A stretch of 63,340 nt of DNA, the filler included, from Choristocarpus tenellus KU-1152 (taxonomy: Eukaryota > Protista > Phaeophyceae): NCBI GenBank assembly GCA_964200185.2. It is 11 parts of 11 records of this genome, joined end to end, with 100 filler letters (N's around TTAATTAATTAA, not from the genome) between each part and the next. Parts side by side here need not be neighbours in the genome. Positions count along the whole stretch, not along the records: positions 40,871 to 43,663 come from CAXNAD020024706.1; positions 43,764 to 46,599 come from CAXNAD020024324.1; 9 more parts are not named here. One strand, written 5' to 3'. Shown here one piece after another: positions 25,250 through 60,467 of this stretch. The position numbers were made by a program, and so were the translations under genes. The notes under the pieces are model-generated. The model did not search any database, was not told the origin of the DNA, and was given only the letters and a program-made list of their open reading frames with translations. Position 1 is the stretch's first letter, and every line of letters begins with the position of its first letter.

Positions 25250-25407
25250 ATGATGTGCTCAACGGACTAGGGCCGTGTTGCGGGACACATAACGTTCAAC
25301 ANNNNNNNNNNNNNNNNNNNNNNNNNNNNNNNNNNNNNNNNNNNNTTAATTAATTAANNNNNNNNNNNNNNNNNNNNNNNNNNNNNNNNNNNNNNNNNNN
25401 NAAAAAC

Positions 25408-28316: not shown

Positions 28317-29104
28317 GCTTTCCAAAGCCAAATCTGGCTGCCAGACGGTTCAGCGGCACTGAACCACGTTGAAGGGACGCGATTGCGAGCCTGGCTGCGG
28401 ATGAGGGACTTCCCTTTCAGGCAATCGCCCTTCCGCACACCCTATCATCACCAACCCGAACAAGAGAGAAGTCAATTTAAAAACGCCTCGAACTGTTGCT
28501 AAAGAAGGGTATAATAGCAGTATAAGTTGACATATTTAAGGTATACGTGTGATGTGTCCTCATTCTTTAAGTATTGGAGTAGTGTGCGACACCCTGGTGC
28601 TGGTTGGTGGCTACCCTCTCCCCTTCAACAAAGTAGTAACCGGTGAGATTCTTTCCTACATAAAGTGGAGTGAATTATGGAGAATCGACCCTTGAACCGA
28701 GGGAGGAAGTGTACGTGGATAGAGTCAGTGCACTTCACTCCTACCATGATACATGCCAGTTGGTCCTCTCACATCATACCTTCAAGAGTCGACAACCTGT
28801 GCTAACATCTCTCGTTTCTACGCGATCAAGCTTCCCGCCAATTGTATTCCGGCTTGTGGACTCCTCAAAGGTTTCCAATGCATGCCTCCTTTTAAAGAGT
28901 CGCTTGATGTTCACTGTAGGTTCATCAACAGACTGTGCAGTGTGTGATGTAAACAGGGCAGTAAAACTTTATCAGAGATTCAAATACAAGGTTCTAACGT
29001 TGATAATGCCGGGTTTCATTGGAATTCTCTTTTGGACACCCATACCTCCTGATTGTTGGTCACAGGCTCGACCACCTAGGCCTTGGCACCAAAGTTGTAT
29101 CGGT

Positions 29105-30636
29105 ATGGCTACGCCTTTGATCTCCCAATTGGCAGGCAAGTCCGTGCTGGTTGTGGGCGGCGCTGGAGCCCTCGGATCAGCCGCATTATCCTTATTTGGA
29201 AAGCTGGGTGCCAACACAATATCGGTGGACCACGTCCGACAACCAGCCGCTGGAGTGTCCCTCCTTATAAGAGAGAACGAAGGATGGGTGGAGCAAGTAC
29301 AGCGAACGCGCGATGCTCTGAATGAGCTTCGACGAGGTAAAGATCCTATTAACTTGGTTTGGTGCGCTGCGGGGGGCTGGGCAGGGGGCTGGGTTGGGGA
29401 CGAGGAAGACGCGGGTCTACGGGCCGTGGAGAGCATGTGGAAGGTCAATGCTTTGTCCTCGGTCATGTCGGTACACCTGGTGAGTAGACCAGGTCAAGAG
29501 AATTTGAGGGGGGGCGTGGGTGCAGTACATCTGAATATAGTCAGATAGCTATGTTCCTTCACTTTGCTAAACACAGGTTTCTCATCAAATCCTACGGGTT
29601 GTCGACACACAATGACTATGCAGGCTAGTCATGTCCTTGACGACTCGGGATTACTGGTGTTGACTGGAGCTAATGCAGCACTCCATGGAACCCCGAGCAT
29701 GGTAGGTTATGGTATGTCGAAGGCTGCGACCCACCACCTTCTGCATAGCGTCGCACATGAAGAAAGAACCACGGTAAGCGCACAGAGTCGCAATTTGTGC
29801 TTCGTTGATGTTAAGAACGGAGAACCACGGCCATGACAAAGATGGCTGGCATCAAGTGTTTCTCTTAGGTTCCTCATCATGCACACAGACTACTTCAATT
29901 TTTCCCTCGTCTTACAGATATGCAAATGCTCGATGATCAACAATTTTCCCATTCTCGGTCCCACACCTATGTCTGACTCTATCTAGATGAAGTATTCTGA
30001 CATCCACTACATTCCACTCATATATTCTCATCACGCCTCTTATGATGTTTCTGCTCCCTCTCCTGTGAAATGGTCATGGCAGCCTGGTTCTTGGAATGTT
30101 GCTGCTATCCTCCCTACTGTGATTGATACGCCAGCCAACCGAGAGGCCATGGGAACAACCCATGCAGAAAGTTGGGTCAAGGTGAGAGATATGCTGTCTG
30201 AAAATGGAGATACAGAGATCGCGCATGGTAGATTGTTGTCAAACAATTGTTCTTGTCTGGGTTTTGATAGCTTGCCGAGATATGCTATCAAAGCGTTGTC
30301 CCAGTGCTTTAAACTTCAAAAGAGACCGACTCATTCAGGATGCCCCTTCCAAAGAAGATTCCCTTGGATCTTTTCATTGTGCACACATAAACAGACACAG
30401 ACATGTGCACATGCTATGGCCATGAGACTGATGAGTATTTGATTAAATCCTGGTGCCCCCCCATCCCCCTATTCCTTCTTGGTTATGGTTCCCAGCCTGA
30501 GGACATTGCAAACAAGGTGGCAGGATGGGTGAACCCTGGTCCCCGGCCACAGAATGGGGCGATGATATCTGTGAGCCAGTCCAAGGGCCGCACCTTCTGG
30601 CGAGAGGTTGAGATGGAAACCACATATCACACTTAA
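29105..30636 (+). CDS. QDPR: Dihydropteridine reductase (SDR family), complete, 4 exons, about 254 aa
   Basis: Exons 29105-29479, 29624-29773, 30083-30181 and 30496-30636, all phase 0, GT-AG. Motifs VLVVGGAGALG, CAAGGWAGG, LVLTGANAAL.GTPSMVGYGMSKAATHHL, ILPTVIDTPANREAM, WVK|PEDIA. Confidence 0.95.
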
Positions 30637-33600: not shown

Positions 33601-33850
33601 GGACACAAAATAACTAGTGCAGTCAGCCAAATGAAAAAGATACATTCATCCCACTATCAGCTTTGAAGTAGATTGCGAACATCATGGGCAAGAATACTGA
33701 GATGCACCTTTTTCACACTTTGTACCATGTTGTGTATAATGGTCGTCCGTCCTCCCCCAATTCCCCCAAGATACTATCCTCACCCAAGCATTCATACATC
33801 CCGTGGTAGGGTTTAGTGACGTGCATGCCGTCTATAACGCCCCAGTGTAA

Positions 33851-34036
33851 GACACAAAGTATCTGGGGGTGGGTGGGGGGTCTACACCAGGGTGTCTATT
33901 TGGGTCAAAACCAGGAAAAGTGCACTTACATTATCCATCCAACGTAAGCAACCAAATCACCCAAAAATTTCGACATGGAAAGAATGAACCCCAAATGGAC
34001 ACCCACCACCACCCCCCCCCCCCCATCCCTTGAACC
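33851..34036. mobile_element. Sola-like MITE subfamily C
   Basis: GACACAAAGTATCTGGGG start, CCCCAAATGGAC motif, reverse orientation relative to 25073-25249. Ends 4 nt before a contig break. Confidence 0.75.
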
Positions 34037-35764: not shown

Positions 35765-35915
35765 TGTAGCTTGATTGGGTACAACCCTCAGGAAGTTGAA
35801 AAGCCTAGATGCCAACCCAATTTTGAGATTAAAAGTTCTAGAGGAGACATTAATGCTTCGAAGGCGTTGCCATGTAACGACACAGCAATCCTCGAACTCG
35901 TTGGTACCTGTGCTT

Positions 35916-36659
35916 ATGGCGTCGATGTGGCATGATTCCGGGCTTGAAAGTGTAGTTATCGCATGGTTCGGAGGCATAGTTTTGTTCATCGCCACGCATG
36001 TCGTCGTGTCCTTTAATCACAGGAAAGAGTCCCAGGAATTGCCCCTCCTTCGATCCTTAGCGGCTTGCAATCGTGTTATCTTGGGAGCAATACTCGTACT
36101 CCTCGTTCCTCTTTTCTTGGGCGCAGTGAGTAACAGTTCTCCTGTGACTATGCCAATTACTTCATATGGGAATACGTTCTCGTGGAACTTTGGCTGGGGA
36201 CGACCCTGTACCCACCTTATCTTCATTAGTGTGGGCATGTTCTTCGAATATCACCCAGGAGTAAGGTGGGTCTGCCTCGCGGGGCTTTGTCAGGCGTTAG
36301 CCCTCGACACGATGGCCTCTTACGACCTTCATAGGGAAATAACTTGTGTATGGGATGGAAGGTGCGCCCTTCCCAAAGGCTACACTCGGGGTGGTCTTCG
36401 ACTGGCGGGGATGAGGGACGTAGCCTCCATATTGTTCGAGGTGTGGGCACTCCTCCTCATGGCGTACCTGAACTTGACCATTGGTCAATGGAAAGTTAGA
36501 TACGCATACAGGCACCTTCATGGTGGAGGTTGCAAGAGAGTGAGGGAGATGCGCCAGGAACTTGCCAAGCATGCACTTAAGCTTCCACAACGTCGGGGCG
36601 CAAATAGATCGGGAGGACAACTGTATCAGGGGGGTGAAGCAGAGAAGACGAAAATATAA
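35916..36659 (+). CDS. Intronless hypothetical integral membrane protein (about 247 aa, 4-5 TM)
   Basis: Longest ORF in the window (35775-36659), probable ATG at 35916. Several hydrophobic helices, a CVWDGRC loop and a basic C-terminal tail. Family not recognised. Confidence 0.75.
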   Translation: MASMWHDSGLESVVIAWFGGIVLFIATHVVVSFNHRKESQELPLLRSLAACNRVILGAILVLLVPLFLGAVSNSSPVTMPITSYGNTFSWNFGWGRPCTHLIFISVGMFFEYHPGVRWVCLAGLCQALALDTMASYDLHREITCVWDGRCALPKGYTRGGLRLAGMRDVASILFEVWALLLMAYLNLTIGQWKVRYAYRHLHGGGCKRVREMRQELAKHALKLPQRRGANRSGGQLYQGGEAEKTKI

Positions 36660-40870: not shown

Positions 40871-43356
40871 CAGTACAGCAAACGCCCGCGTTCCACCCTC
40901 CATGGCCGTTTTGTTCTTCTTCCACACCAGGAACGCTGCTGACAGAACCCCCTTCGCCCGTATCCTCCCTGTCTGGCAGTCCGTCCCTCCTCGTCTTCGT
41001 CCCCTCCTTCGTGTTCGTCCCTTCCCTCGTTTCCATCTCCTCCTCTATGTTCGCACCCTCTCTTGTCTTCTTTCTCACGGCCATCTGATGCCGATCCGTT
41101 CTTGCTCTGGACGTCTGTGCCGCCGCCATGACCGGCCGACCCGCTGTGACCCTGGTGGAGGTTGATCTGGTTGAGGACATAATATTTCCCATCCCAGGTG
41201 GTGAGGTAAGCGCGTAGAGTTGATTCCTTCTCGATAATCTGGTGTTGGGCACGGCGGAGGACGTTGTTGAGGAGAGGAGGGGACGATGGAAACGTTAAAA
41301 ATGGGAGAGTGTAATGGAGTTATGATAGCATGTCAACTGAACAACGGAGCAAACCTATCGGTTTATGTGGTGAACATGTTTAATTGATGCGGCTTGCGGG
41401 GCGAAATAGTTTGAAAGAAGTCTATGTCGAGGACGCCAGTCTGTAGGTTACGACAGTGACACGTGTTGGAGGAAGAAACGGGGTGGAGATTGACGAAGAT
41501 CGTTGTCTAGAGTAGAAGGAAACGATTCGCTATTCCCACTATTAGCAACGAAAGACTAGAACTGACAAAATAGCATCGTTTGTTGTAGGGAAGGCAACTC
41601 TGTCGCTCATGATGACGACGAAGACCCGCTACGAATCCTACCAAGCGTCAACTAATTGTTTTTGTACAAGCCATATTTCAGCTACAATTACCAACATAGG
41701 AGGCACACTCACGGCTCTGACCTGTTACATGGGTTTCATTCCGACTACCGCCACGATGTTTGCCCTCAGCTGCCGGACGGTCCCCGCTTGTTGGTCGCCA
41801 GATGAAACCTTCTCCAGAAGTTCCGCCACCTCACTCTTCCTCTCCTCGTAGTGGGACTTGACCCAGATGTCGTGCATATTGCCGTTCTCATATGCGAGCT
41901 TGTTCATTTCCCTGGCAGCCTGTGCATCATTCACGTAACGTAAAAAAAAAACCCGTTATGCAACAGCCAATAAGTGCGGTGCCGAAAACTATGCTGATAG
42001 TATATTTTGCAATTGAGGGGCGCATGGCCACGTATGGGTGCACTGGAGATACGGGAAAGGAGAAAAAGGAAGATAACTGCTGTAACTTCCACCATTTACA
42101 AACCTTTGGAGCTCTCGTGTCCACTTCTCCTTCGGCACAATCTGCCTCGTGCGCGAGACAACCATGTCAGACATGTGCGCGTCCGATTCGATGTCCTTGT
42201 AGTCCCTCACCGTAGGAACCCTCCTGTTGAACGACTTGTATCTGCAAAAAGGGAATGGCCATGAAGGACGTCAACGAGAACGATACGCAGGGAATGATGA
42301 CGAAAGGGTCGCCCATGCATTAAATATTCATGGATCGATAGTTGTAGTTCATGACAGACAACAGCGCGCATAAACAGGAAACACACACTGTTGGTTGAAT
42401 CTACACAATACTACGAAGGGTTCTTCGTTCGACACAACAATGGCCGACAATATTCTTCGTCATAGGAGACACGTATTTAACGTCAATGTGCAATGTCCTA
42501 CGACCTGCATTCAATGCGCTTACTGCTGTCTACACAAAAAAACATGCGGCGGTTTGACTTGCCTAGCAAGCAGATGGATGCATAGCCCCTGCTTGAGAGA
42601 AGTGAAGCCGGCGAACTCCTCGCAACTGAGATAGTTCAGTGTGACTACGTGGTGGTCGACCTGCGGTGCCTTGCTCTCACACACTTCCTTCAGTACCTTG
42701 AAGGACTCTGGTATAAGGGACTTTACGCCTTTCTGCCAGTTTCGTAGAGTTGATTTCGACGGGGGAGCAACGACCACCTTGGCGATGGGCAGAAAAGGAA
42801 AATATCATGCACCCAGTCAGCCAGGATGAGTCATATTGCAAAACTCTCCTATGGCCGCAGCCTTCCGAGTCACATCTTCCTCTCTCTTAAAAAATAAAAA
42901 AATAACACATGGCAACCTTTTTATTTCCGCACCAACGGGGTATGTATGAGTGTGTGTGGGGGTTATTCAGCGGCCTGGCCTAATGATATTATAAACAAGG
43001 ATATATTCATTGCTCGTCTGTTTTTAACCACTCATACATACTACCACGTGATCAGCCGTAAATCCGTAAGTTGGTTGACAGGGTTCCTAAACGCGGGATA
43101 ACTATATCAACTTAGGTTGAATAGGAGGACACAGAGGGATTTCACAACAGCTGTAACCGAACTAGAGGAGGACTATAGCGCCAACATCTCACTAACGTGG
43201 ACAACTCCCTCACCCTTTTGTACATTGTGCAGATCTCCACTATTGACGCTTCTTTTTTCTTCGTCTGTTGCTTGATAGATTCTTGGAGCTTGTGCTGAAG
43301 AAATATCTTATCGTACAGTGTGCGCTCAACCACATTCTCGATCGCGTCGCTGAATG
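40871..43356 (-). pseudogene. ParB-like gene, copy 1 (middle and 3' exons), degenerate
   Basis: Exons 43356-43214 (AFSDAIENVVERTLYDKIFLQHKL...), 42777-42563 (VVVAPPSKSTLRNWQKGVKSL..., AG|gcaagt donor), 42241-42104, about 41990-41713 (frameshift in a T10 run, premature TAA) and 41238-40871 (acidic Gly-rich). The first of these exons is homologous to 43992-43850. Confidence 0.6.
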
Positions 43357-43434
43357 CTATAAGCGTGGCGGTCCAGTGGGCGAATGGGACAAGGGTTAGG
43401 TGGGGAGCGGTCGCGGGACACACGCGGCATGCAG

Positions 43435-43663
43435 TAGGGATGTCAAGATTATGCTTGACCATTTGTGAGAATATGATTTGAAGTATTATTTTATGTACAC
43501 ACAGAACATAATACGGGATATTCAGGATGTTTAGGCGGGGTATTTGACCAGAAGTAATCGGCGGACTATTAGAGTCGGAGTGTTTCTGACGTGTACTAGA
43601 GAAACGTTGAGTCATTTGGTATTCTGAGTCATTCAATGTAAGGACTGGTGAGCCCCACCTAGT
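43435..43663. mobile_element. Probable transposon end (hAT-like TAGGGATG) interrupting ParB-like copy 1
   Basis: Alignment to copy 2 stops at about 43434, where TAGGGATGTCAAG begins. The other end is not in the contig. Confidence 0.35.
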
Positions 43664-43849
43664 NNNNNNNNNNNNNNNNNNNNNNNNNNNNNNNNNNNNN
43701 NNNNNNNTTAATTAATTAANNNNNNNNNNNNNNNNNNNNNNNNNNNNNNNNNNNNNNNNNNNNGACACAGGGATATCTCGCAACAGCTGTAACCCAACTA
43801 GAGGAGGAGTAGAGCGCGACCATCCCACCAATGTCGACAACTCTCTCAC

Positions 43850-44697
43850 CTTTTGGTACATTCTGTGGATCTTTGCTAGTGACACTTCTTTCTTCTTCGT
43901 CTGTCGCTTGATAGCTTCTTGGAGCTTGTGCTGAAAATATATCTTATCATATAACGTGCGCTCAACCACACTCTCTGTCGCGTCGTTGATTGCTATAAGC
44001 ATGGCAGTGCAGTGGGCGAACGGGACAAGGGTTAGGTGGGGAGCGATCACGGGACACACGCGGCCTGCGGCACCGAGAAACATGTTGCTGTGGACAGGAA
44101 TACCACGAGGGATAAAAAAGATGAACAACGAAAAGATCCACAATGGGCTGACTGACAATGAACATAGCAAGGGAAACTCGACAACAACTTCGTATATCAG
44201 AATAGTCATCAGGCGATCACGGAACAAGGAAAACACTACATTACTTCGGTGCTTAGTTGATCAGAACGGTCAGGCGGTTATGGAATGACGAAAACACTCC
44301 ATCACCCACCATTGGCAATTAGCCTCTCTTCCGTTTGCTTGAACTCCATGTAGATCCGCATGGTGAAAGCGTGCTTGGGATCGAACACTCTCTTCAGTAC
44401 CGTTACTCTATGGTTTCCGTCCAATACATGCCCTTCAATGGCAAGCGCAGTTTCGGCGTTTAGTTCATCCATATTACCTAAACTTTCTCGCTAGATGACA
44501 ACACTTGGAGCAAACTGATCCAGCCAGCCTTTCTCCTTTATAGACTTATGAATGCACGCAAGGCCACGCTCGCTTAAAGGACGCACCATATCTGTGCATG
44601 TGACGTGTCCTAGTTTCATCTTGTATGGCCCCAGATAATGTTCATCAAACAGCTGGGACATGCCAATAGAGGGTAGGTCCCGCGTTCTGGATTCCAA
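43850..44697 (-). pseudogene. ParB/Sulfiredoxin-fold domain gene, copy 2 (5' exons), one in-frame stop
   Basis: Exon about 44697-44310: MVRPLSERGLACIHKSIKEKGWLDQFAPSVVI*RESL...GHVLDGNHRVTVLKRVF...EERLIAN(G|gtgggt). It splices in phase 1 to exon 43992-43850, AINDATESVVERTLYDKIYFQHKL. TAG at 44493-44491. Confidence 0.7.
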
Positions 44698-45469
44698 CCT
44701 TTCCCATCGGTGGGCGGGTGGGTTGTTGTTCTTGGAATGTTGGACATGGCAAAGATTGGGAGGGTGTGATGGGGATGGGTAAGTAAGAGGTCTGAGTGGT
44801 ATCTACGAAAGGGAATGAATTGAAATGAGGACTGAGGGATGGGAGGTGCTGTTTTATGTCGTCTGGTCTGTCGATCCTCAAAACTCAGATTTCACATTTT
44901 TTATGAGAATTGCGTTACAAAAATACGAATATCAAACAGCATAGGATTTCATATTGAACTGGAACAGAGGGTGTCTGTATTTTTGTGACCTTTTCGTTTC
45001 GTACGTTTCGAACGTATTAGATCAATGAAGGATGTGTTTTGTATCTGTATTTGTTGGTGTAAAGATTAGAATATCATTCTACTTTTGGAAAAACCCTAAC
45101 GCACGTGTTCTGAGTGTTCAACGGTAAAAGTGTTTACCAGTAACCGCGAATAAGATACGCTTTTTTATGTTATCTAGTGTTTATTTAAACCCTAAAGACG
45201 CAAAAAAGTGGATTTAGGGTTTAAATAAATAGTGGGTACCAGTTGGAAGGACTTCTTAGGTTTTCTGAAAGTTGGAAACGTGTGAGACCCCTAAAGTGCG
45301 TTCTTGGTATTACAAAAACACCTTAAGAACGGCTTTCAGTGGGTTTAGTATTTAAAAAAACACTAACGCACGTGTAAAGTGGCCTAACCCTTAAAGGTGG
45401 TTTGTGGCAACCACCTTTTCGTAAAGAGTCACTTCTTATCGACTTGTACGTTTCTGACAATCGCTATGT

Positions 45470-45737
45470 GAGTGAAAGTATCTTAGAGGTTAGGGTCGAG
45501 TCTGTTTGTTGTCTGTTTGGGGCAAAATCCAATGTTGCGATTTTGATTAAATTTTGGCTGTTGTGTATGTTAGGGAGTGTCAATATCCTTGTTCCATACA
45601 CACCTTTTCATAACATAAATATTTCACCTACTCTAAAATATTTCGGAGTAGGAAAATGTCTTTTAAAAAAACGTGGGAAGCTAAGCCCCAAACGGACAAA
45701 CAGGGCAAAAATCGTACCCTCTAAGATACTTTCACTC
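45470..45737. mobile_element. Sola-like MITE subfamily A (reverse orientation)
   Basis: Perfect 20-bp TIR GAGTGAAAGTATCTTAGAGG / CCTCTAAGATACTTTCACTC. Exact 4-bp TSD ATGT (45466-45469, 45738-45741). Homologous to 5856-6113. Confidence 0.88.
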
Positions 45738-45814
45738 ATGTCCGATTCGGTAAGATTTTGTACTTCAAATACGTAGAGGGTTGGGGTTGTTTTTTGACGT
45801 TTTGGTTACTGCAA

Positions 45815-46437
45815 ATTGGAAACATACAAGATAAATTAAGTATGTGATTGGTATCTTGAAAAATACAAATCACTACTGATATAATTATATTTTTTAGAAA
45901 TAGAAATCAGGCATTTTACCTGATCTACAACTTCCGAAAAAATGTAACGCACGGATTTTCGGGATCGGTGGGATGTCAGAGTGGTTCCACTGATCGCCCG
46001 AGGATCAAACAAAGTTGATTTAGGAACATTGGAAATGTACAATAACAATTAATTACGTGATTGGTATCTTCAAAAATACAAATCACTGATATAATTGGAT
46101 TTAAAAAAAATAGAAATCACGGAAAGAATCATTTATAACTTATGAAAAATGTAACACACGGATTTTCAGGATCGGTGGGATTGAAAGGGTGGTCCCACCG
46201 ATCCTGAAAAGGATCAAACAAAGTTGATTTCGGAACATTGGAAATGTACAATAATAATTAATTATGTGATTGGTATCTTGAAAAATACAAATCACTGATA
46301 TAATTGTATTTAAAAAAAAATAGACATCACCGATATAATCTGATGTACAACTTCTGAAAAATGTAACACACGGATTTTCAGGATCGGTGGGATTGAAAGG
46401 GTGGTCCCGCTGATCCTGAAAAGGATCAAACAAAGTT
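45815..46437. repeat. About 210-bp tandem array x3, each unit with an 18-bp-stem hairpin
   Basis: GTGATTGGTATCTT anchors at 45844, 46057 and 46266. Hairpin TTTTCAGGATCGGTGGGA-12nt-TCCCACCGATCCTGAAAA at 46163-46210. Confidence 0.9.
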
Positions 46438-47199
46438 CATACACTCGTCTTCGAATCTAATCACTCCTACACCTTCTCACTGCCCAAGACCGCATGTTGA
46501 TCGAAAACGCTATGCCAGTTGCTTCCACAGCAACAGGGTGGCTTGTGTCGCCTACGTCTCCCCCTGCGTTGCCCCCACACCAGCCCGCCAACAATGATGN
46601 NNNNNNNNNNNNNNNNNNNNNNNNNNNNNNNNNNNNNNNNNNNTTAATTAATTAANNNNNNNNNNNNNNNNNNNNNNNNNNNNNNNNNNNNNNNNNNNNA
46701 TGCTAAGAGAATCCACTGAGGAGAGGAGGGAGAGAAAAAGGAAAAAGAGAAGGGGAAGGGGGGGGGGGGGGGGGGGGAAGGGGGAGGGGGGGAAGCAATG
46801 AAAAGGATGAGGTAGCATAGTTGCTGTAAATCTCGAAGAAAAGTATCCCCACAGCAAGGCAGTAAAAGCAAGCACAACACCACATACAATTGCACACACT
46901 AGTGTACAGAAATGTAGAGCACCAGTGGAGTGGTCCTTTCTCGTTCCTCCACATAATATGTATATTCTAATAATATATATATTCTATTTCAATAATTGCT
47001 TCTTTCCATTCCACCAAATGACCAGAGTCCTCAATCCTTTAACTAATCCGTAGGGAGAACCCATGCATGCAGAGATAGACCACACCCTGTCCAAGACCTT
47101 TATCACAACCTCTTTCCTCCCTTTGCCCCTCCTATCACAACATTGCAGTTATCCCTTGCCATCAACAAAATACAAAACGATAAGCGCACTTGGACTCAC

Positions 47200-50100
47200 C
47201 ATGCTCATCCACCAATGCCCGGAGGCATTGTGTCATGTACGGAGTCCATCCTCCAGGGTCATACTCCTCCAGCTGCAAAAAATAAAAACATTGGGCAGGA
47301 AGGTGCTACAGTGATGATTTCTTATCTAGCTTGGTGTCTCGCAGACCCACAACAAGCAGAGTAGTAACATTGTTTCTTTTTTTCCGAGGCGAGGACCAAC
47401 ACCAAACAACAACAAAAAATGTTAACATTTACACAAAAAAATACTTCCATTTTTGTTTGGAGAGGGACTGGGGTGGAAGGCTCACCGCATTCATTTGATT
47501 TGTAGGTGAGGACCAATGCACGGGCTCTAAGATGGTACCACATAAATCAACTCATCAACTACACTGCATGTACCTACTCCTTTAAAGTTAACAGTCAGCA
47601 TCACTACTATAGACAAAATAGAAAAAAAAAAGAATACAGCACAGCCATCAAGTGTCCTGTGGATATACTTCTAAAGACAAATATGTACCAAAATGCATCA
47701 GTAAGGAGGCCTCTGTAATATTATGAAAAGTACACATCTATACATGTATATCTAGATGCTTGTATACAAACAAATGCCGACCAATTTCAAACTTACATTA
47801 GCCTTTCTAATTGCCCGACTCTGCTCTTCCATCTCCCTTGTGCTGGCCTTCTGTGCTCGAACAAGAGAGGGTCCCTCAAGTGCCTGTTTAATAAATTTTG
47901 GGATTTTGGGATGAGAGGACATAATTTTTTTTTAAATCAAAACAAAGGATACACAAATAGTTACGGTGGGGATATAACCAACAAAACCTTTCAGAAGGCA
48001 ATATTTCTAGTCACTTGCACCTATCACGAAACTAAAAGGGTCTTAATGGCACACAAAAAAACGCAAGTTCTTTTCTTGCTTTCATCACTAAAAAATAGTG
48101 GGGAACCAACAGGACTGTACAACTGACAGTACGAGTATGATGCTATTGATCATGTACTGAGTCAGTAGTGTCCTTGCCACATCCTCTATCGCACAATGGT
48201 ATGCTGCACAATCTCTTCAGTCTTCCAGAAGATATTTTTATTACAAAAAGGCAGTATCTTCTTTTGCGTTTTTCAGATCTCTTGAAGCTGCTAGATGGAG
48301 AAGAGGCCGGCATGTGATATGTAGTCAAGTACAAGGGAATCTGGGTGATGTAATAATAGTTACACATACATACCGTTTTTTGTCTAGCAACAGCTACTAC
48401 TTTGAAGAAGTATCTACCAGAACTGTATTGCAATTGCAGAGCGGAGAAAAGCTCTATAAATCATGCAAGGATTTCCCTTTTATGGTGGGATGGGTCAATG
48501 TTTTCGCATTTGAGCACAACTCTTACCCAAATATACCTCTTATAAAACAGGAACTTGAAACAAAATACGAGTCCCTGCTAAGTATATGCCTGGGTAGGTA
48601 GGTGGCATCATTATCACATTCTCAATCCCCACGACAGTGAGTCGTCCTATCTTCTCAATTCTCTGTAACAGAATCAATTTGACAAAAACACAATTATATT
48701 ATCTATTAGATCTCTAGTAAGAGGGCAGTATGACAACACAGACAGGGAGAAGGAGATGGAGATCATATAATGATAATTCCAGATAATCACTAGGGCTTTA
48801 TAATGGACTGGCAGTTAACCGGATCAGGACAGCTGCAATCTTTACGGCCCAAGTCTGACCCTGTCAATATAATATATATTTTACCCGATCTGACTACAAT
48901 GTCATTATATCTGGCCCGGCCTGGTCCAGTCACACTCTCTGACCTGGACCAGTCCTGCTGAGGTCCAAATTCGAATTATATTTGGGTGACCCTGTCAAAT
49001 TATTCCAAGCCTAGTGACATTTCAAACTAGAAATTGAAAGATCTACAATATATATAGCAGAAGAAACTCTTAGGTAGGAATGAATACCTAGTTTCTAGGG
49101 CACTTTTTTTCACCTTTCGAACAGCAAAAAATATTTTACATGTTACTCTTTACTACATTACTAGTGAAGCGCTCACAGTCTATTGACACTAAGCAGTGCA
49201 TTGGAAGGATCAGGATCCCAGTGATCCACAGGTGCAATCTTCACCTGGAAGGGATTCCAGCGGTTGCATAATGACACTTAGATGTTAAGCCATCTGCTCC
49301 AAGGTTGTCAAGTCAGGTGCGATAACATATCAACCTGATGATCAATGAATTAACGGATTCTCCCATGTGGCAGGTGGGATAAAATCCAGGCTATGTGGCG
49401 GTATTCCGCTGTTCCAAGACATTCATGAGATATTTATGATCCCACATGTGGATCTTACAATCGAAAATCCGAGGGCATCGCAACAGGGTGGATTACAGAA
49501 AAATAAAAAGTCCACCCTTTCAATCTATTAACAATGAGCAGTGCATTGCAAAGGTCAGGATTCTTGTATTCCGTATGTATACTCTTCATCTACAGGATAA
49601 TCCTACCAGTCGGTTGCACAGTGGCAACTGGAAGCTGATCCATCTGTTTTAGGATTGTGTCATCAGGGATGATATAATCTCTACCTGATGACGTCCAATG
49701 ACATTACCGTTTCTTCCATGTGGTGACCGGGAACTGTGCATGGTGCCACACGATCTCAGATTCAAACAGTTCAAACCGTTTGTGAGATACAAGTGATCCT
49801 GCAAAGAGACATCACAATTGGCATTGTGAATTTGCCACAGGATGGATGATGGGGAAGCGAATGCCTGGGAAGAATGTGGTTAGGGGGCCAAAATGCGTGA
49901 AAGGGGAAGAAGATAAAAAGGCGAGTTCCTACCGTTGAGAGAAGCTGCCAGATCTGCCTGGATGAAGAATTTGACGGTGAAGATGATGGCTGAGGATGAA
50001 GAGATCAAGGTAAGTAGAACCTCCTTGCTCTGGCTAGGGCTGAGGTTGGCACCCATGAGTGTTAGAGATTGAGGAGTATGAAGAAGATAATGATGAAGAG

Positions 50101-53100
50101 CAATACGAGAATATCGACAAATAGGTGAATGGAGAGATGGCAGCTCGTTTAGATACTTGAAGAAATAATGGGCTTGTGTGAGCTTAACACACTCCAACAC
50201 TTTAACACCTCGATACTTCAGTGACCCAAGTATCAATGAACATGGCCTGGAAGGCCAGTCCTACCTAAAGTCTTGATGCCACCGGTCCAGTCCGGTCCAG
50301 TCCGGTCCAGTCCTGTTAAAATATACCTAACTAGAACCACCCCAGGGCGTAGTTCGTTTTACAATCTTAATAGCTCCCATCCAACCCAACCCTGTTCACA
50401 TACTCTTCGTCAGGTTAGTGTGTGGTGAGATCCATTTATATTCTGTGATGATATTGGGATGGTCAAATTGTCTCGGTGACTACGCAAGTGGCACTCTCTA
50501 GACGTGCCTTGCGTTTTAACCTGAAGTCACCAGGGAGATGGGCACGGAGGGGTTTATTGGATTCTTGGGATGCCTCCCTAGCTCCTCTCCCAGATTGCAG
50601 GAATAGAGAAGGTAGTAGTAGTACAACATATATCGTGCTGAAGTAACAAATAGATACGTATTTTTCAAATAAATAACATTTTATTTAAGGCTTATGTATA
50701 GTGTATAGTTTTTTCTTATTTCCCCCCTAGAAAATGCCAGAGGGCATAATAATAAAATATTTGGATGGTGTACAATGTTTTATAATGTTCTTACGTTTAG
50801 GACATTTTATTTCTTTAGGGCTAATAACGACATATATATAGTTTTGATTGGTTTCCCCCAACATATCTGCAAAATGTCAGAGGGCATAATAATAAAATAA
50901 TATATATGGTGTTCAATACTTCAGGTGGATTGATCTGGTGTCGTGATATTTTATCGTTATGTAAAAAACAGCGATATTCACCGTTTCAAATCTAAATAAA
51001 AAATGCGGAACGAATCATTTCTATAAAAATATATATATCCTATTCGGTCCTTTTTTCAACCTTTCCTAAATACTTTCAGTGAAATGTGTAGATGTGGGAG
51101 ATTTTGGAATGATTTGAGTTGTTGGTGACATCACATTAAAGAAGGATGTTGATTCTTCAGAAGAATAAAAGCAAAATAGTAGTTATATTTTTCAATTTCG
51201 GAAACAAATCAGAAAAAACAACATTTTTCCTGGAGTACTACAAACCTACATCTTCATTAAATGAATCTACATAGAACCTTTTCCAGTTGAATCTTGACAA
51301 CTATGTTGATATGAGGGATGGATCCCTTTTAATACATATTTGCGATTATAAAACAATGACGACAAACAAAATAATATATTTTATTATTATGCCCTCTGAC
51401 ATTTTGAAGATGTGTCACATAATATATCCTTCGATTTTTTCTCCACCTTAACGTTTTTCAATCTCACGATGGCGAGCTGCGCGATTTTGACAATAGTCGA
51501 TTTGAATACTATCTAGATAAGTACACCTACAGGATAATTGGGTTGGTTTACACTCGGCAGTGTCGGCAACCAATGTTCTTCTCCAACCTGCCCCTGTATG
51601 CTCCTATAATCCACTCTCATTATTCTCAGAGTTATGATGCCCCCCCTCTTCACGTACCAGAACTACTTTCGCAACCTACTTCCTGCCACTTGAGATGGAC
51701 AACGTGGGGCCTTCATTGGCTAAGAAGAAAATATTCTTTAAATGCCAGGGTTGGTATGGTTGTGGTAGAGGCTACAAGATTGACAAATTGAAGAGCGGAT
51801 CCAAGTCCTTCGCCTAATATCGGTTGTAACAGTCCCAAACCGACAGGACAGAAGCAGACATTGAGGTGTCATACACACTCCATTCATTCATTTGTTGCAA
51901 CAATGCACATACATCTCTCATCCCCACACCCAACAGTTGGCATACAATGCATCACATGCTCTCCGCCAAACATAGGGTCAATACTCTCTTTCACCTGCCC
52001 TCCACACACATTGACTTGCCTATGAACGAATTCTTGATCTCTAGTGAACGAATGATGTCGAACTATGTCTGAAAAAGTCAGATTTTGGGCCTAGATACGT
52101 TCGAAGTAAATGGCTGGAGAAAGGAACCCCAGGTCTTGCTCTTCTTAGGAGTGGAGCTCAGTGGATATACTCCTGAGCTTACACTACTATTGAATTGACA
52201 GTTTCTACTATTTATATTTGCGTATAATAAGTCACCAGAACAAGGAGGGTCATTAATACTGGTTTTTATGTCTGGCTCAAAGTACCTGGGGAGGGTGGTG
52301 GCTGTCAATTTGGAGCTAAATTTTTCATGTCGCGATTTTTGGGTGATTTGGTTCCATACGTTGGATGGATAATGAAAGTGTAATTTTCCTGGTGTTGGTC
52401 CAAATGGACACTTTGGTGAAGAACCTCCCCCCCCCTAGATACTTTGGGTCTCTTTATTATCCATTGACAAAAAAAGAACCTCAGCCACCTTCGAACAACA
52501 AAATATGTCAAAATTGAAAAAGATATTATACATGTATATATGTATTTTGTACAGCAAATGCATCACAATAAAAAGAACGGAAGGTTCTTATCATAGAGTC
52601 ATATTTTGCTGGACCAACCTGTAGGTGATGGTGGGTGAACAGCTCCAAGAGGGGGAAGCATCATCAAATTTCTCTGGTCGTAGAGAAGATAGATTCCCTT
52701 TACTCCACACACAGAGTCTCCAAGCATCAGTAACATCGAAATTTTCGTAGTTGCTACTGAGAAACACTCGTATTCAATGCACAATCCTAACCTTGCAACC
52801 CTCTTCAAAAATATATATGTACGGTAGAGGTAAATGGTGGAGACATACTTGTCCACATTTGCTTCCTTCTCACCTGTTTTGCACTGGCCTGATGAGCTCG
52901 CTGGTGCTTCTTCACCTTCTCCATCTGATTTTTACATGGCAGTTACATAAATGAATGCAACACCATGGCAAAAGTTGGAGGAAAAATGAAAGTCGTGCAT
53001 TCGGGTATATGAGACATTAGTTGAGCAAAGTACATGTTTGATTCATTTGCACAACTTGCAATGTGTCACCTACACACCCGAATATTAATATTTGACTTGA

Positions 53101-56100
53101 AGCTCTCCAGTAGTAGAGCTACACAATTATCACTGAGTTATTTCAAAATGCCCATTAATAGGTGTACTATTTTCAACAAAATCAATGGAGGTATTTTAAG
53201 AATAAACGTTCACCCATCAACAACCGAGCATACTACTAGTACAAAAAATAATCAAGTTACATTATACATAATAGGTGTATATACGTTCTGATAACATTAT
53301 TCAAAGAGTAAGATGTCACTACCAAGGTTGGGGCCAGTTCAACAAAAAGGTTCATTTTCTGTTAAAAATCAAACCGAACAAAAAAATATTATATAGAAAC
53401 TAACTGTAACCGTACAGAGCAGAAATCAAATTACCATTCTTAGCCGATTCCTTCTAAGTTACCAGGTTATGCAAGTAATGCACCTGATGGTGGTGAAATT
53501 GGACCCCTTTCCTCTCCCCACTACGGTGGACATGACCACAGAGAGCGTGGTAGTGTCGACGAGTTGCCCTCCCATCCTCCTCTCTGTTGGAGGCAGACAG
53601 TGTACATGCATACAAAGAGAAAAAAAAAAAAAGTGCATCCCGCCGTTCACATAAAAAACATAATTACACAAGCACAGTAGGGACAACAGAGAAAAGACAG
53701 AGTTCACAAGAAAACAGGCGAGGTGTGCAATGGTCACAGGGCTTGGGAAAGGAGGGGACCAGTTGAAGCTAATCTTATCATTTTGTGAGGTGAGGCTTCC
53801 CGCATGTCAGCAGTGACAGGCTGAAAAGTCATTTTGAAATAAAAACAGAACATGCACCTAACTCAGGGATGTAAACATAAGCCCAGTTGAGCAGACCACT
53901 TATACGAAAAATCAGAGATAAATCCTGACTAGACATGGATGGGAAAGTCAATTGGTTGGTTCAATTGTGTGTGGTATATCACCAACAGTATAATATCGTA
54001 TATGTGTCTTTCATCATCATAGTAGACTTCTTTCACACCAGAAATCTATCCACATCTATCTCCACAATGTACCTGCCACTACTGTTACTGTAGAGGCAAT
54101 AATGTGAAATTCATAACTGTGGTTGAAGAAAACAAAACAAAACATACTAAGCACACGTGGCTATGCAATTTGCAAGAGGGACACTGCCCACCACTCCAGC
54201 AGCTATAAACACACACAAAGATCGGATAGACCTTACAATACTAACAATGTGTGCATACCCAGGAAACGACAAGAAAGGTTTCAGCACAAGATATGTACAT
54301 AAATGTCACTACACTCCTAACTTAAAGAGTACAAGCATGCTGAGGGAATCAGCAAATCAATGAGAAAAGGCATAAGGTGGGGGAAGAAATAAAAGTTCCA
54401 TTCTCTTCACAGTACCAACAGAGAGGTAGAAAGACATGATCAAATAGGAACAATCGCTGCAAATATTTAGCCATCGTTGCATAGATGGTCATATAATGTG
54501 AAAGAGAGACCCCACCGAGTGTTAATATTTAGCAGCAAGATTTATTGTCTCAAGTTTTCTGGGTAAGTCATAAAACACATCAACAGTCACAGCAGCTGGT
54601 GGCGACACATCAATTAGGGCCCACTTGGCTCTTTGGGGATGAGGCTATGATAGCTCTGATCCCTAATGTGCTTGCTCCGACAAGCCATCATGACCCTCAG
54701 GGCTTGTACCTCCGCCGATGGTCTTGGGGCAATTACGATTCTCACTGTGACCCCAGTTAGAATGACTAGGAATGACTTAGATGGTGACTGTCCTACACAT
54801 CAAAGTTTAGCCATTTTGCCAAACAAACAGGGACTAACGGGCACCACCTACATAACACTTACAGACTGAGACAACAATAAACACATATTTTCAAGTCCTC
54901 AACTGTCTAGTTCATTCCTTATTATTAGGATTGTGAATCTCTGCAATTCAACTGAGACCCGATTAATTTAATTGAATAGATACTAACAGCAATAGAAACA
55001 CTTCAATCAGACTTCTATTCATCATATGTATCCTTGCTTCACAATCTGCTTCAAAATTTCTCACGGCACTTGGTGTTTTCTAGCAACTACCTCACGGCGA
55101 TCTAAGCATCACGCACCTCAAAAGATTCAAGATACTCACAAATCCTTGAATTCTTGACTCACTTTTTTTATTCTGGGTGATTTAGGGTTAGGGTTAGCAT
55201 ACTGCGGGCAAGTCACTGTTTAATACAAGCTCAAGTGCAAACACTAATGAAAAGCCAATGCGTCCCATACAAACCATATAGCATTACCAACCAAAACAGG
55301 GGAAAAAAATGGCAACATACTCCAAATAAATAACCTCGTGCATACCATCCTGGCTTGAACAAAGAAAAAAAATATAACACGGATATGATTATTCCTGTGA
55401 TTCATATTGCAGTTGTAAATACTATACAGCAAAGGTTCCTCATTTTGAAACAGAAATAAAAAGCAGTTTTGCTATTCAAGATGAAAAAGATTCAAAAATC
55501 ACAATAGAAAAAAAATATAATATTTTGTCATTTAATTATATATGTATGTGTGTGTGTCTATCCTGGGCTCAACTAAGGAAAAAATAGAGTACTGAGGAGC
55601 AAGAAAATTCAAGAGTGTTTTACTAATTGTTTCAAATCGATTCTATTGACTATTGGATCTAAGCATATGCAAAGTGTGTAAGGCAACGACTATTAATGGA
55701 TGGGAGCCGCACATGCCTGCAACTAAAGATTTGACTGATTTAAATTTTTAATTGCAATGTTGAATATTCAATTAAATGAATCAACTCTCAATCTGATCAT
55801 CGCGCTTCACAACACAAAAATATATATCGTTTCATGTGTATATTTCGATAATGGACTTAGTTGTTGAAATGCAAAAGATGAAGGGTAAGAAAATAAAAAA
55901 TGGACATGTCCTTTCCTATCCAGGCTCATTACCCATTTGACACAAACACAGCTACAGATACTGACCATGGTGTACGCATCATGATACTGGAGCGTTATGC
56001 ACATACTGTCAAACTCCATCTATTCAGCATCATTTCAAACAATATGCAGGGCGGTTCGCTTCTGGAAACTTTGCACACACATAAAAAAAACTCTCAAATG

Positions 56101-56901
56101 GGGATCATTCCTTGTGGTGATAGGTCGGTTTCCATGGAGATTTAAGTGTAACCTCATAATGTGTTTTTTTTTAAAACCACAAAAAAATGTGAAAATCTGA
56201 TAGCTATTGTGCATTCATAGCCCCCCTAGCAAATTGTTCGGAGGAATTATGAACTTGCAGGAAATATCCCAACACAATCAAATATTCATTTATAGAAGAA
56301 AAAAAGAACCCAAGAGTCACAAGAACACTACCACAGATGATTTTCATCAACACAGGGGAGAAGTAAACACTACATCAAGGCTTCAAACTCTTTTGTATGA
56401 TTGGCTAAAAAGTAGTGTTGCGAATGGTAGAGCTTCAATCATGACAAAGGACAGCTGAAAATGAGGGTACTTTCAACTGCTTATTTTTCGAATGAACATG
56501 CACCATTCTGTGGAGCTTGGTAATTCACACGACCCTGGTACTGTGCTGCACGTACATTCTGGTTATGATGGGATACACAATCTTTTTTCCACCCGATTTA
56601 ACTTAAAATCACAAACGCATTCAATTCACAACACTACTAAAGCAAGGAATCATCCATAAATATGCTGAGCAAAACGTATATCTGGAACCTGGGGATGGTC
56701 AGAGGAATACACTTTAGTAATGGAGGACAGGAACAGGAGGTTTAGGGTTAGGGGTGGGGGAACTAACACTGTACCTCACCTTCGATAAGCACACTCCCTA
56801 GCAACACATATTGCACGTCTTTCCACCACCACCCAAAGCTTAGGATCCAACTGAAACGGGCAAGATTCATCTGAGCCTTCCACTGCCTCTCCCCCTTCCC
56901 C

Positions 56902-56935
<34 letters not shown>

Positions 56936-57554
56936 TTCCCCCCCACCCCCCTCCCCCCCCTCCCCTTGGTCCCCAGATTACCACCCTGCAGGATGACAGA
57001 ACCACCTCGCCCCTCATAAACTGTAGTGGAGCTTGTCCTAGCCCCCCCTATTCCACTCACACTCCCAATGTCATACATATCATCACCGCTACCACCGTCA
57101 CTGTTACCAAGTGAGCCACTGTCCCCTCCCACAGCAACCGTAGCATCTGGCAGAGTAAATCGCTCATTCGAAGCAACATTAATCCCTTTAAGAACATCAT
57201 CACCTACCTGAACCAATGAATCCATGAAATTCCCAAACTCCCCCTCTGCCCCCCTCTGTTGCAACCCCCCCACACCACCCTCCTGGGGCGAAGGATGGTC
57301 TCCAACTTCAATTCCTCCAATTCCCATACTTTTGCTGTCAATGAAATCTTCCATCGGTGAGGCACCCCCTATCTCACCCACCCCTTGAGATATACTGCTA
57401 CGGGGTAGTGCTATTGCATTGGAATGGATCCCAAAGCCTTGCCGCTGACGATGATAATGCTGGTGTTTATGCTCAACATGCCCAAGCACCCACGCCTCAT
57501 CCAGACCGCCAGTCGTTCTGCAACCCCCCCCCCCGGCGGCGGCGGCGGCGGCGG
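47200..57554 (-). CDS. Putative transcription factor with Cys/His zinc finger and Myb/SANT-like start (partial)
   Basis: Phase-consistent exons: (57554)-56780 (Gly-rich ... CVARECAYR), 53583-53484 (REEDGRATRRHYHALCGHVH...FHHHQ), 52924-52874 (MEKVKKHQRAHQASAKQ), 47883-47797, 47272-47200 (GGWTPYMTQCLRALVDEHG, like a Myb first helix). Confidence 0.6.
50861..51415. repeat. Inverted-repeat pair (29 bp perfect, about 40 bp imperfect) around about 480 bp of AT-rich DNA
   Basis: AAAATGTCAGAGGGCATAATAATAAAATA (50871-50899) vs TATTTTATTATTATGCCCTCTGACATTTT (51377-51405). Same motif as the 39640-40235 repeat. Confidence 0.75.
52274..52450. mobile_element. Sola-like MITE subfamily C, intronic
   Basis: GGCTCAAAGTACC ... 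GATACTTTGGGTC. Aligns with 25073-25249. Flanked by TCT on both sides. Confidence 0.8.
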
Positions 57555-57654
57555 NNNNNNNNNNNNNNNNNNNNNNNNNNNNNNNNNNNNNNNNNNNNTT
57601 AATTAATTAANNNNNNNNNNNNNNNNNNNNNNNNNNNNNNNNNNNNNNNNNNNN

Positions 57655-57759
57655 ATTATCCATCCGACGTATGTATGCAACCAAATCACCCCAAAATCGC
57701 GACATGAAAAAATTGACCCCAAATGGACAGCCGCCACCCTCCCCCAGATACTTTGAGCC
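57655..57759. mobile_element. Sola-like MITE subfamily C, partial at contig start
   Basis: AAATCGCGACATGAAAAAATT ... CCCCAAATGGAC ... CCCAGATACTTTGAGCC. Confidence 0.75.
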
Positions 57760-57761
57760 CG

Positions 57762-58279
57762 AAAGCTATTCCCAGGGATCACAAGATGTTAGACTTGGTG
57801 AGATTTTGTTGGAGGGTTTCTATCCCTTCCATCAGTGACTGACATTATTGGCGGGGAGTTACTAGAGTGTGGTAGTCATGTCCAGGCGGTGTGTTTAGCG
57901 TTTTGTCTTTTTTTAAGAGATGATATATATCTGTTTCTCAACTATACACTAAAGTTACGACAAACACGTATATCATGGGATTGAACCCCGTATTATTACA
58001 CATACATGCGTAAATAATATCTCCTCCTAACCTCGACTGTTTAGTACAGTTCTAATAAAGGCTAATCACGAGGGGTCGAATCCCGTCATGGTTACGCACC
58101 CGTCACACATCCGTCAAAAGGCTGAACACGCCGCCTGGACAACAAAAACAACGCAGTTTGGATAACAAAACCACACTATAGTAACCACCTCGCCAAAGTT
58201 ACCTACTGAACATAGAGATAGCAACCCTCCAGTGAAACCTCACCAAGTCTAAGAGTTTGCGATTCCCAGGAATAGCTTT
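57762..58279. mobile_element. Foldback-type element with about 240-bp diverged inverted arms
   Basis: Mirror-matched blocks: AAAGCTATTCC/GGAATAGCTTT, TTAGACTTGGTGAG/CTCACCAAGTCTAA, GTCCAGGCGG/CCGCCTGGAC, GGGATTGAACCCC/GGGGTCGAATCCC. Confidence 0.8.
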
Positions 58280-60285: not shown

Positions 60286-60286
60286 G

Positions 60287-60467
60287 GACCAGAGTTATAA
60301 TTTGCCTGTGGGGGGGTCTACACCAGGGTCTCCATCTTGGTCATAACCAGGAAAAGTGCACTTAATTATCCATCCGACGTATGTAACCAAATCACTCAAA
60401 AATCGCGACATGAAAAAATTGGCCCCAATTAGACAGCCGCCACCCCCCCCCCCAGATACTTTGGCTC
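60287..60467. mobile_element. Sola-like MITE subfamily C abutting the RT relic
   Basis: Aligns with 33851-34036. Ends CCCAGATACTTTGGCTC. Confidence 0.75.

What the first reader, a model, noticed from the sequence alone, without database searches (positions are those of the whole stretch)
40871..44697. Spliced, multi-copy, prokaryote-like ParB (DGNHR) + HTH-like gene in a eukaryote: candidate undescribed mobile-element system
Seen: reading through one TAG that splits the ORF track gives VRPLSERGLACIHKSIKEKGW...PSVVI...VLDGNHRVTVLK...RLIAN|AINDATESVVERTLYDK. A second contig carries a paralog of the 143-nt second exon with flanking intron sequence still alignable (about 43130-43430 vs 43764-44070). 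That paralog continues into a PSKSTLRNWQKG segment, helical exons and an acidic tail. Both copies carry lesions. Established: L..SI...G...P..V ... DGxHR ... A...N is the ParB/Srx N-terminal pattern, and bacterial and phage ParB place an HTH after it. Eukaryotic sulfiredoxin has FGGCHR instead, so this is not Srx. ParB domains are often fused to DNA methylases in phage and plasmid systems. Inference: two similar decaying copies among 11 short contigs point to a repeated, TE- or virus-derived cassette that has gained spliceosomal introns, possibly a CTP/nucleotide-binding DNA clamp or the N-terminus of a DNA-modifying enzyme. The two copies are on separate contigs, so the full protein is a composite model.
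Basis: partly seen in the sequence, partly recalled or inferred. Interest (0 to 1): 0.85.

Follow-up and report, generated by a model that had tools for sequence, protein, structure and literature searches.

The report
Algal transposon's ParB cargo gene
These are two broken copies of a spliced, highly repeated brown-algal gene for a bacterial-type ParB protein beside an array of palindromes; it is likely cargo of a giant DNA transposon, a kind first reported in 2025, and is predicted to bind its own element rather than act as an enzyme.

Summary
Two contigs carry decayed copies of one spliced gene. Four of its five complete introns are joined out in one public run and in none of the comparison runs. 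Many divergent copies exist, and copies A and B show no sign of selection.

A full-length relative folds as a bacterial ParB nucleotide-binding domain plus helical DNA-binding region (Foldseek E 1e-4). The profile finds 185 clusters; all named ones are brown algae. Full-length relatives end in a distant N4C/N6A-methyltransferase-like domain. The system is not undescribed: a ParB-methyltransferase cargo gene is reported in the Ectocarpus Sola1-1 transposon, and a ParB gene beside inverted-repeat arrays in red-algal Plavaka elements.

New here:
- A 210-bp tandem array with an 18-bp palindrome lies upstream of the gene.
- Both glutamates that ParB needs for CTP hydrolysis are absent.
- The methyltransferase motifs are absent in the relatives seen.
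- The element is CpG-rich in a CpG-poor genome.

The likely role is a non-catalytic protein that binds and marks its own element. No transposase or element end was reachable.

The parts
44310..44747 (-). Copy A exon 1: ParB/Srx-fold domain (R..., SI...GW...P, DGNHR); frameshift near 44700 and stop at 44493-44491
43993..44309 (-). Copy A intron 1, GT-AG, 317 nt; joined out in run X3
43850..43992 (-). Copy A exon 2 (143 nt): end of ParB domain (conserved Asn) and first helix of the predicted HTH
43441..43663 (.). Another high-copy repeat inserted in intron 1 of copy B; homology with copy A stops here
   Evidence: depth step and loose ends at 43442
43214..43356 (-). Copy B exon 2, 83% identical to copy A; conserved Asn lost
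42563..42777 (-). Copy B exon 3: second helix of the predicted HTH (PSKSTLRNW) and following helices; GC donor
42104..42241 (-). Copy B exon 4, helical region
41713..41911 (-). Copy B exon 5, helical region; stop at 41727-41725
40871..41238 (-). Copy B exon 6, last helix and acidic Gly-rich linker; cut by the contig end before the methyltransferase-like domain of full-length relatives
45469..45738 (.). Nested MITE-like insertion with 24-nt terminal inverted repeats; another copy at about 5856-6078; hundreds of different flanks
45815..46437 (.). Tandem array, period about 209-212, 2.9 copies; 18-bp inverted repeat with 12-bp spacer (perfect at 46163-46210); candidate binding site, untested
46438..46599 (.). 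Repeated sequence beyond the array, so the element continues past the contig end; weak hint of a divergent transcribed unit
   Evidence: 29-39 contigs at two sites in X1; high cover in X3

Best explanation
The region holds two decayed copies, on separate contigs, of a spliced multi-copy brown-algal ParB-fold gene that is likely the accessory gene of a giant DNA transposon, and whose intact product is predicted to bind the element's own palindrome array as a non-catalytic, self-marking DNA-binding protein. Shown here: the exon structure, splicing in one run, many divergent copies, neutral decay between copies A and B, the ParB fold of a full-length relative, the array, and the missing catalytic residues. 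Inferred steps: (1) intact copies elsewhere in the genome make the protein; (2) a dimer reads the 18-bp inverted repeat through its HTH, as ParB reads parS; (3) the ParB domain binds a nucleotide and closes on DNA but hydrolyses it slowly or not at all, like PadC; (4) the C-terminal methyltransferase-like domain, which lies beyond the contig end here, acts as a DNA-binding or docking module and not as a methylase; (5) coating the element favours its expression or transposition, in the manner of VANC anti-silencing proteins. My odds: transposon cargo about 0.85; binding of the own array about 0.55; non-catalytic marking as the function about 0.4.
For: Fold: the model of relative P0027 (115-sequence alignment) has block pLDDT mostly 80-98 over residues 31-420, with one dip to 61-74 at 141-160. 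All 9 Foldseek hits with E<=0.001 are ParB, Noc or KorB (E 1e-4 to 6e-4, 266-274 columns). VIA Z is 9.9 for 6sdk (rmsd 2.7, 95 residues), and several ParB-family chains align on to residue ~300. Splicing: 4 of 5 complete introns are joined in X3 and not in the comparison runs. Copies: 18-49 contigs differ at each of the 14 listed sites from 43873 to 44963 in X1; five Choristocarpus gene models lie on contigs of five different lengths. Decay: exon 2 of A versus B has 16 amino-acid-changing and 4 silent codon differences of 47, while the adjoining introns are 82-91% identical. Family: 185 clusters at E<=0.001; Ectocarpus, Pylaiella and Sphacelaria each have members in different deep clades. Catalytic loss: Asn in 90% and Ala in 8% of 98 domains at the E78 position; no acidic residue at the E111 position in 10 of 10 spliced models, with the next Asn kept in 10 of 10; E78 and E111 are needed for hydrolysis and absent from PadC (PMC8494293). 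Methylase-like domain: hhalign 30.6 against a maximum of 19.3 in 40 shuffles, two colinear blocks; no DPPY-type or FxGxG motif in 5 of 5 C-terminal pieces. Precedent.
Against: No transposase, terminal repeat or target-site duplication could be reached: the contigs are under 3 kb, no genome is held, and locus scans were empty. No member passes a Pfam ParB cut-off (0 of 115; only weak ParB-superfamily hits), and sequence searches of the PDB found no ParB. The methyltransferase match is weak (HH probability 25%) and was tested against one chosen template. It rests on two complete domains, one from Cladosiphon and one from Ectocarpus, and that region did not fold. The published Ectocarpus protein is predicted to be an active methylase, and its sequence could not be read. 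The array was seen beside one copy only. CpG transitions are still about twice as frequent as expected in the element, so it is not clearly shielded. The run types are not on record, so X3 as RNA is inferred. DGxHR motifs also occur in ParB-fold enzymes that use other nucleotides (recalled), so missing glutamates do not prove inactivity.
Confidence: 0.55

Rival explanations
1. Same transposon cargo gene, but intact copies encode an active N4-cytosine or N6-adenine methyltransferase, guided by ParB to the element's own repeats, as proposed for Ectocarpus Sola1-1_Ec32.
For: Published prediction (PMC12477816). ParB-methylase fusions occur in phages: 7 of 67 fetched, and their ParB domains align with the algal profile at P about 1e-5. 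The array holds 10 GATC sites in 626 nt against 2.9 per kb in the window. The C-terminal domain of the window's own copies is not visible.
Against: Motif IV and motif I are missing in all 5 C-terminal pieces seen, including P0002 from the window's own subfamily, which covers the motif IV position.
Confidence: 0.2
2. The ParB domain is an active nucleotide-using enzyme of another specificity (as in SbnI, SerK, DndB or GmrSD), acting as a switch or kinase in transposition rather than as a parS-type clamp.
For: DGNHR is nearly invariant. SbnI, SerK and sulfiredoxin score Z 7.2-8.8. Weak Pfam hits to GmrSD_N, DndB and DUF1015.
Against: The best structural matches, which extend into the DNA-binding region, are ParB, Noc and KorB, and a palindrome array lies upstream.
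Confidence: 0.12
3. The gene belongs to endogenous virus or virus-like insertions and is not transposon cargo.
For: The nearest Atlas clusters by features are phage proteins (score 0.91-0.92). Viral ParB-like folds match at E 1e-6 to 1e-3, including two giant viruses. The contigs are CpG-rich, unlike the rest of the window.
Against: Five or more spliceosomal introns, no sequence relative in IMG/VR or phage records, only 9-15% identity in the top viral fold matches, and no viral gene recognised on either short contig.
Confidence: 0.06
4. An ordinary or domesticated host gene family, or two haplotigs.
For: P0002 (Ectocarpus) and P0003 (Undaria) are 83% identical over 172 residues.
Against: Both copies are broken, diverge neutrally at about 15%, and are repeated many times together with their introns, upstream DNA and array.
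Confidence: 0.05

Closest known systems
Accessory gene of Ectocarpus Sola1-1_Ec32 (21.5-kb giant DNA transposon; 1104-aa ParB + N4C/N6A methyltransferase; PMC12477816)
   Same: Brown alga, repeated element, ParB domain with a C-terminal beta-class methyltransferase-like domain in full-length relatives.
   Different: Homology untested, because the paper's FASTA supplements could not be read. The carrier superfamily here is unknown. The relatives seen lack methylase motifs, whereas the paper predicts methylation. No palindrome array was mentioned in the passages read.
PAG3 of red-algal Plavaka elements (bioRxiv 2025.02.11.637652)
   Same: Transposon cargo with a ParB domain (their best hit 7BNR, also a top hit here) beside tandem arrays of inverted repeats.
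   Different: PAG3 ends in a putative 2OG-dependent oxygenase; this family ends in a methylase-like domain. Different algal lineage; homology untested.
Bacterial ParB, Noc, KorB and PadC
   Same: Same nucleotide-binding fold, the Gly and last Arg of the GxxR motif and a following Asn kept, helical DNA-binding region after it, and a palindromic candidate site.
   Different: 10-17% identity; DGNHR in place of GERR and no ENLQR; spliced; extra helical domain and acidic linker; no ParA seen.
VANC proteins of Arabidopsis VANDAL transposons (PMC5735166, abstract)
   Same: Functional analogy only: a transposon-encoded protein whose targets often form tandem repeats in its own element.
   Different: No relationship shown; anti-silencing is demonstrated for VANC and untested here.
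DUF3723 of fungi (Starship cargo; association recalled)
   Same: Weak similarity: Atlas feature score 0.89 and 3 of 115 members at E>=0.06.
   Different: Below every cut-off; a lead only.

Membership tests
ParB/Srx superfamily | ParB/Srx nucleotide-binding fold | tested here: met
   Foldseek E 1e-4; VIA Z 9.6-9.9, rmsd 2.5-2.9 over 91-100 residues, on relative P0027; window exon groups with the family
ParB/Srx superfamily | Pfam ParB_N gathering score | tested here: not met
   0 of 115 members list PF02195 among the 25 families shown; 0 of 68 at E<=0.05
ParB CTPase clamps (Spo0J, Noc, KorB) | Nucleotide-binding Gly, Arg and Asn of the GxxR and xN motifs | tested here: met
   G 100%, R 95%, upstream R 92% of 98 domains; N in 10 of 10 spliced models
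ParB CTPase clamps (Spo0J, Noc, KorB) | Hydrolytic glutamates E78 and E111 | tested here: not met
   N or A at the E78 position; F, L or C at the E111 position, mapped by motif and by alignment to phage ParB
ParB CTPase clamps (Spo0J, Noc, KorB) | HTH DNA-binding domain after the ParB domain | tested here: inconclusive
   Helices 191-200 and 209-221 are predicted; alignments to Noc, KorB and ParB extend to residue ~300 but at rmsd 6.5-11; no HTH profile hit above cut-off
ParB CTPase clamps (Spo0J, Noc, KorB) | Dimer clamp that binds CTP and a parS-like site | not testable with these tools
Sulfiredoxin | FGGCHR motif with catalytic Cys (recalled), stand-alone domain | tested here: not met
   DGNHR in 82 stored proteins, no Cys at that position; multi-domain protein
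Beta-class N4C/N6A DNA methyltransferases | Colinear homology to the catalytic domain | tested here: inconclusive
   hhalign 30.6 vs shuffle maximum 19.3, probability 25%, in relatives only
Beta-class N4C/N6A DNA methyltransferases | Motif IV (D/S/N)PP(Y/F/W) and motif I FxGxG (recalled) | tested here: not met
   Absent in 5 of 5 C-terminal pieces; 4 cover motif IV and 2 cover motif I
Algal giant DNA-transposon ParB accessory genes (Sola1-1_Ec32, PAG3) | Lies in a high-copy interspersed repeat | tested here: met
Algal giant DNA-transposon ParB accessory genes (Sola1-1_Ec32, PAG3) | Linked DDE transposase, terminal inverted repeats, target-site duplication | not testable with these tools
   Contigs under 3 kb; no genome held; locus scans empty
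Algal giant DNA-transposon ParB accessory genes (Sola1-1_Ec32, PAG3) | Tandem array of inverted repeats beside the ParB gene | tested here: met
   45815-46437; 18-bp perfect arms against a maximum of 11 in 300 shuffles; one copy only
Algal giant DNA-transposon ParB accessory genes (Sola1-1_Ec32, PAG3) | Sequence homology to the published proteins | not testable with these tools
   FASTA supplements unreadable; search for 843-2405-aa relatives empty

The most novel reading that the evidence does not exclude
Brown-algal giant transposons carry a eukaryotic ParB/parS-like module: a spliced, hydrolysis-dead ParB clamp with a pseudo-methyltransferase that loads at the element's own palindrome array, spreads along it and shields it from host CpG methylation. 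This would be a bacterial segregation clamp repurposed as a transposon anti-silencing device, and would explain the CpG-rich element in a CpG-poor genome.
Probability: 0.2. Interest if true: 0.85.

Novelty: new variant of a known kind. Interest (0 to 1): 0.48.

Why it matters
ParB clamps are known from bacteria, plasmids and phages. Their use by algal transposons was noted only in passing in 2025, and I found no test of it in the papers searched. This locus supplies a gene and a concrete candidate site side by side, shows the family to be large and old in brown algae, and predicts that both enzymatic activities are lost. That makes it directly testable whether a eukaryotic transposon uses a ParB/parS-like module to recognise and protect itself. 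The copies in this window are themselves dead.

Tried and rejected
No whole genome is held for this window.

Profile and sequence searches that gave nothing: Pfam on 10 window pieces (no hit in the six gene pieces beyond two weak unrelated ones). Pfam, NCBIfam and PHROGs on relatives gave no ParB or methylase above cut-off; the best were PHROG ParB-like at E 0.006-0.09. PDB sequence searches found no ParB or methylase domain.

The first fold (4 sequences, pLDDT 36) was uninformative and gave no Foldseek hit. The C-terminal region of P0027 did not fold, and the Atlas gave only scores under 0.8 for the P0002 tail.

Scans for related loci were empty in viral contigs, metagenome contigs and phage records (none; two hits at E 3). 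No relative of 843-2405 aa was found (weak evidence). No RNA holder was listed by record. The scan's earlier findings held nothing.

Rejected readings: the ATG at 46494 as a start codon (other copies read another letter there); exon 5 starting near 41990; contamination as the cause of the CpG richness of contig A (it shares a MITE with a CpG-poor contig). Shielding from methylation is not claimed: CpG transitions are 10 of 25 CpG sites between A and B, and 7 of 20 private C-to-T changes against 21% expected (p=0.12).

Literature searches: ParB + brown algae + methyltransferase + transposon, ParB + accessory + N4-methylcytosine, ParB + algae + parS + tandem, ParB + DUF3723 (none), ParB + Ectocarpus. 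None of the listed titles or read passages describes loss of the catalytic motifs. Iyer et al. 2011 was not held.
Full report
Observation. The window is 11 short contigs joined by N-spacers; no genome is held. Contig 43764-46599 (copy A) carries, on the - strand, exon 1 (44747-44310) with the ParB-like pattern and a TAG at 44493-44491, then a 317-nt GT-AG intron and a 143-nt exon. Contig 40871-43663 (copy B) carries a paralog of exon 2 with alignable intron flanks (85% over 305 nt) and four further exons. A single database gene model, P0001 (Choristocarpus tenellus, 525 aa), matches exons of both copies in order, so the composite model stands. The closest named proteins for the exons are Choristocarpus models, so the host is likely a Discosporangiales brown alga (inference).

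Splicing. Four coded public runs hold part of the sequence, all from one study, with their kind not on record. Run X3 has contigs that join out intron 1 of copy A (exactly 317 nt once the four replaced letters are counted). It also joins out introns 42562-42242 (GC-AG), 42103-41912 and 41712-41239 of copy B. These joints are absent from X1, X2 and X4 (copy A) and from X1 (copy B). That is 4 of 5 complete introns; the fifth is not among the rows shown. X3 cover is high over exons and low over introns, so it is probably RNA (inference). The joints correct exon 5 to 41911-41713.

Copy number and decay. In X1, 20,160 contigs lie on contig A (many on the nested MITE) and 2,279 on contig B, most of them under 95% alike. 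At each of the 14 listed sites from 43873 to 44963, 18-49 contigs differ from the window; only 40 of about 665 rows were shown. Introns, upstream DNA, array and the last 160 bp are all covered, so the repeat unit is larger than either contig. Contigs are not a copy number, and X1 may be the source sample. All X1 depth at the stop codon reads a different letter, so that lesion is private to copy A. Between A and B, exon 2 has 16 amino-acid-changing and 4 silent codon differences, and the adjoining introns are 82-91% identical. This fits neutral decay (p=0.8 against 75% amino-acid-changing). Five Choristocarpus gene models lie on contigs of five different lengths.

Family and fold. A profile of four proteins found 185 clusters at E<=0.001 and 97 at E<=1e-10. 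Of 20 looked up, the 17 with a name are brown algae (Choristocarpus, Sphacelaria, Ectocarpus, Pylaiella, Scytosiphon, Cladosiphon) and 3 are unnamed Logan proteins. A tree of 84 domains (83 stored domains after dropping near-duplicates and pieces too short around the motif, plus the window exon; 120 columns) has several deep clades with single species in more than one. The window exon groups with P0006 (100/98) inside a 13-row clade that holds P0001, P0002 and P0003. The model of full-length P0027 is confident over residues 31-420 and matches ParB, Noc and KorB. The Atlas model of P0001 agrees (TM 0.60-0.68). No curated ParB profile is passed.

Catalytic residues. In 98 domains the upstream Arg (92%), SI, GW, P and DGNHR are conserved. 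B. subtilis ParB needs E78 (GERR) and E111 (ENLQR) for CTP hydrolysis, and PadC, which lacks them, binds CTP without hydrolysis (PMC8494293, passages). Here the E78 position is Asn or Ala, and the E111 position is Phe, Leu or Cys in 10 of 10 spliced models, with the following Asn kept. Full-length relatives continue through an acidic linker (in some with a Cys-rich stretch) into a C-terminal domain. Against a profile of 67 phage beta-class methyltransferases, taken from 124 loci, it scores 30.6 (40 shuffles: maximum 19.3; reversed: 12.8) in two colinear blocks, at a probability of only 25%. Neither the catalytic nor the SAM-binding motif is present. P0002, from the window's own subfamily, has the start of this domain, so the window's element likely had it beyond the contig end (inference).

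Surroundings. About 1.1 kb upstream of exon 1 lies a 2.9-copy array of ~210-bp units. The middle unit has perfect 18-bp inverted arms around a 12-bp spacer (300 shuffles: maximum 11); the other two units are degenerate, with 7 and 11. A MITE-like insertion at 45469-45738 has hundreds of different flanks, and another repeat interrupts intron 1 of copy B. Both contigs have CpG o/e 0.91-0.94, against 0.33-0.59 for the other 9 contigs; 0 of 51 1-kb windows elsewhere reach 0.9. [quoted passage not shown] CpG changes inside the element are only about twice expected. This fits weak or recent methylation of a CpG-rich element and does not show protection.

What is known. PMC12477816 (passages, section 5, and rows of the text supplements) describes a 1104-aa ParB plus N4C/N6A methyltransferase gene on the strand opposite the transposase in the 21.5-kb Sola1-1_Ec32. 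It suggests such proteins bind and modify their own transposon. Its FASTA supplements could not be read and bear directly on membership. The Bostrychia preprint (passages; supplements not seen) describes ParB-domain PAG3 beside tandem arrays of inverted repeats in Plavaka elements, and says the accessory genes move between transposon families. PMC4738411 (passages) covers ParB-HTH methylase fusions in other eukaryotes. PMC5735166 (abstract) gives the VANC analogy.

Verdict. The feature is real: dead copies of a transcribed, spliced, multi-copy ParB gene. It most likely works like the published algal transposon accessory genes; membership in the Sola1-1 family is untested, and the carrier transposon is unknown. 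It differs from the published picture in the predicted loss of both catalytic activities, which points to a binding and marking role at the palindrome array. Binding, dimerisation and any effect on silencing are inferred, not shown.

Noticed in passing
P0134 (Ectocarpus sp. CCAP 1310/34 gene model), residues about 100-225: The N-terminal part, fused to a ParB exon in this gene model, looks by recalled motif like a hAT-type transposase (LIVGDES...FVAF...WFGLL). Pfam, NCBIfam, PHROGs and PDB searches gave no support. If real, some copies sit beside a hAT transposase.
   Followed up: partly
P0002 vs P0003: The Ectocarpus and Undaria proteins are 83% identical over 172 residues, while other Ectocarpales members are far more distant; possible horizontal transfer or strong conservation of one subfamily.
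   Followed up: no
window 1-40770 and 46700-63340: The host contigs are strongly CpG-depleted (o/e 0.33-0.59, TpG and CpA raised), a sign of past or present CpG methylation in a brown alga, a group in which most species lack DNMT1.
   Followed up: partly
window 45469-45738, 5856-6078, and both ends of 60579-63340: A very high-copy MITE-like family; related pieces sit at both ends of contig 60579-63340.
   Followed up: partly
window 57655-60478, about 25070-25250, 33850-34020, 52270-52450: A second short repeat family; direct copies bound contig 57655-60478 and recur on three other contigs.
   Followed up: no
window 28667-29545 (+): Open frame with a weak short-chain dehydrogenase match (adh_short E 0.001, below cut-off); probably an exon of a host gene.
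   Followed up: no
window 35775-36659 (+): A 294-codon open frame with several hydrophobic stretches and no Pfam match.
   Followed up: no
window 45088-45420: Palindromic and repeated motifs between the gene and the MITE, with uneven cover; possibly another nested element.
   Followed up: no
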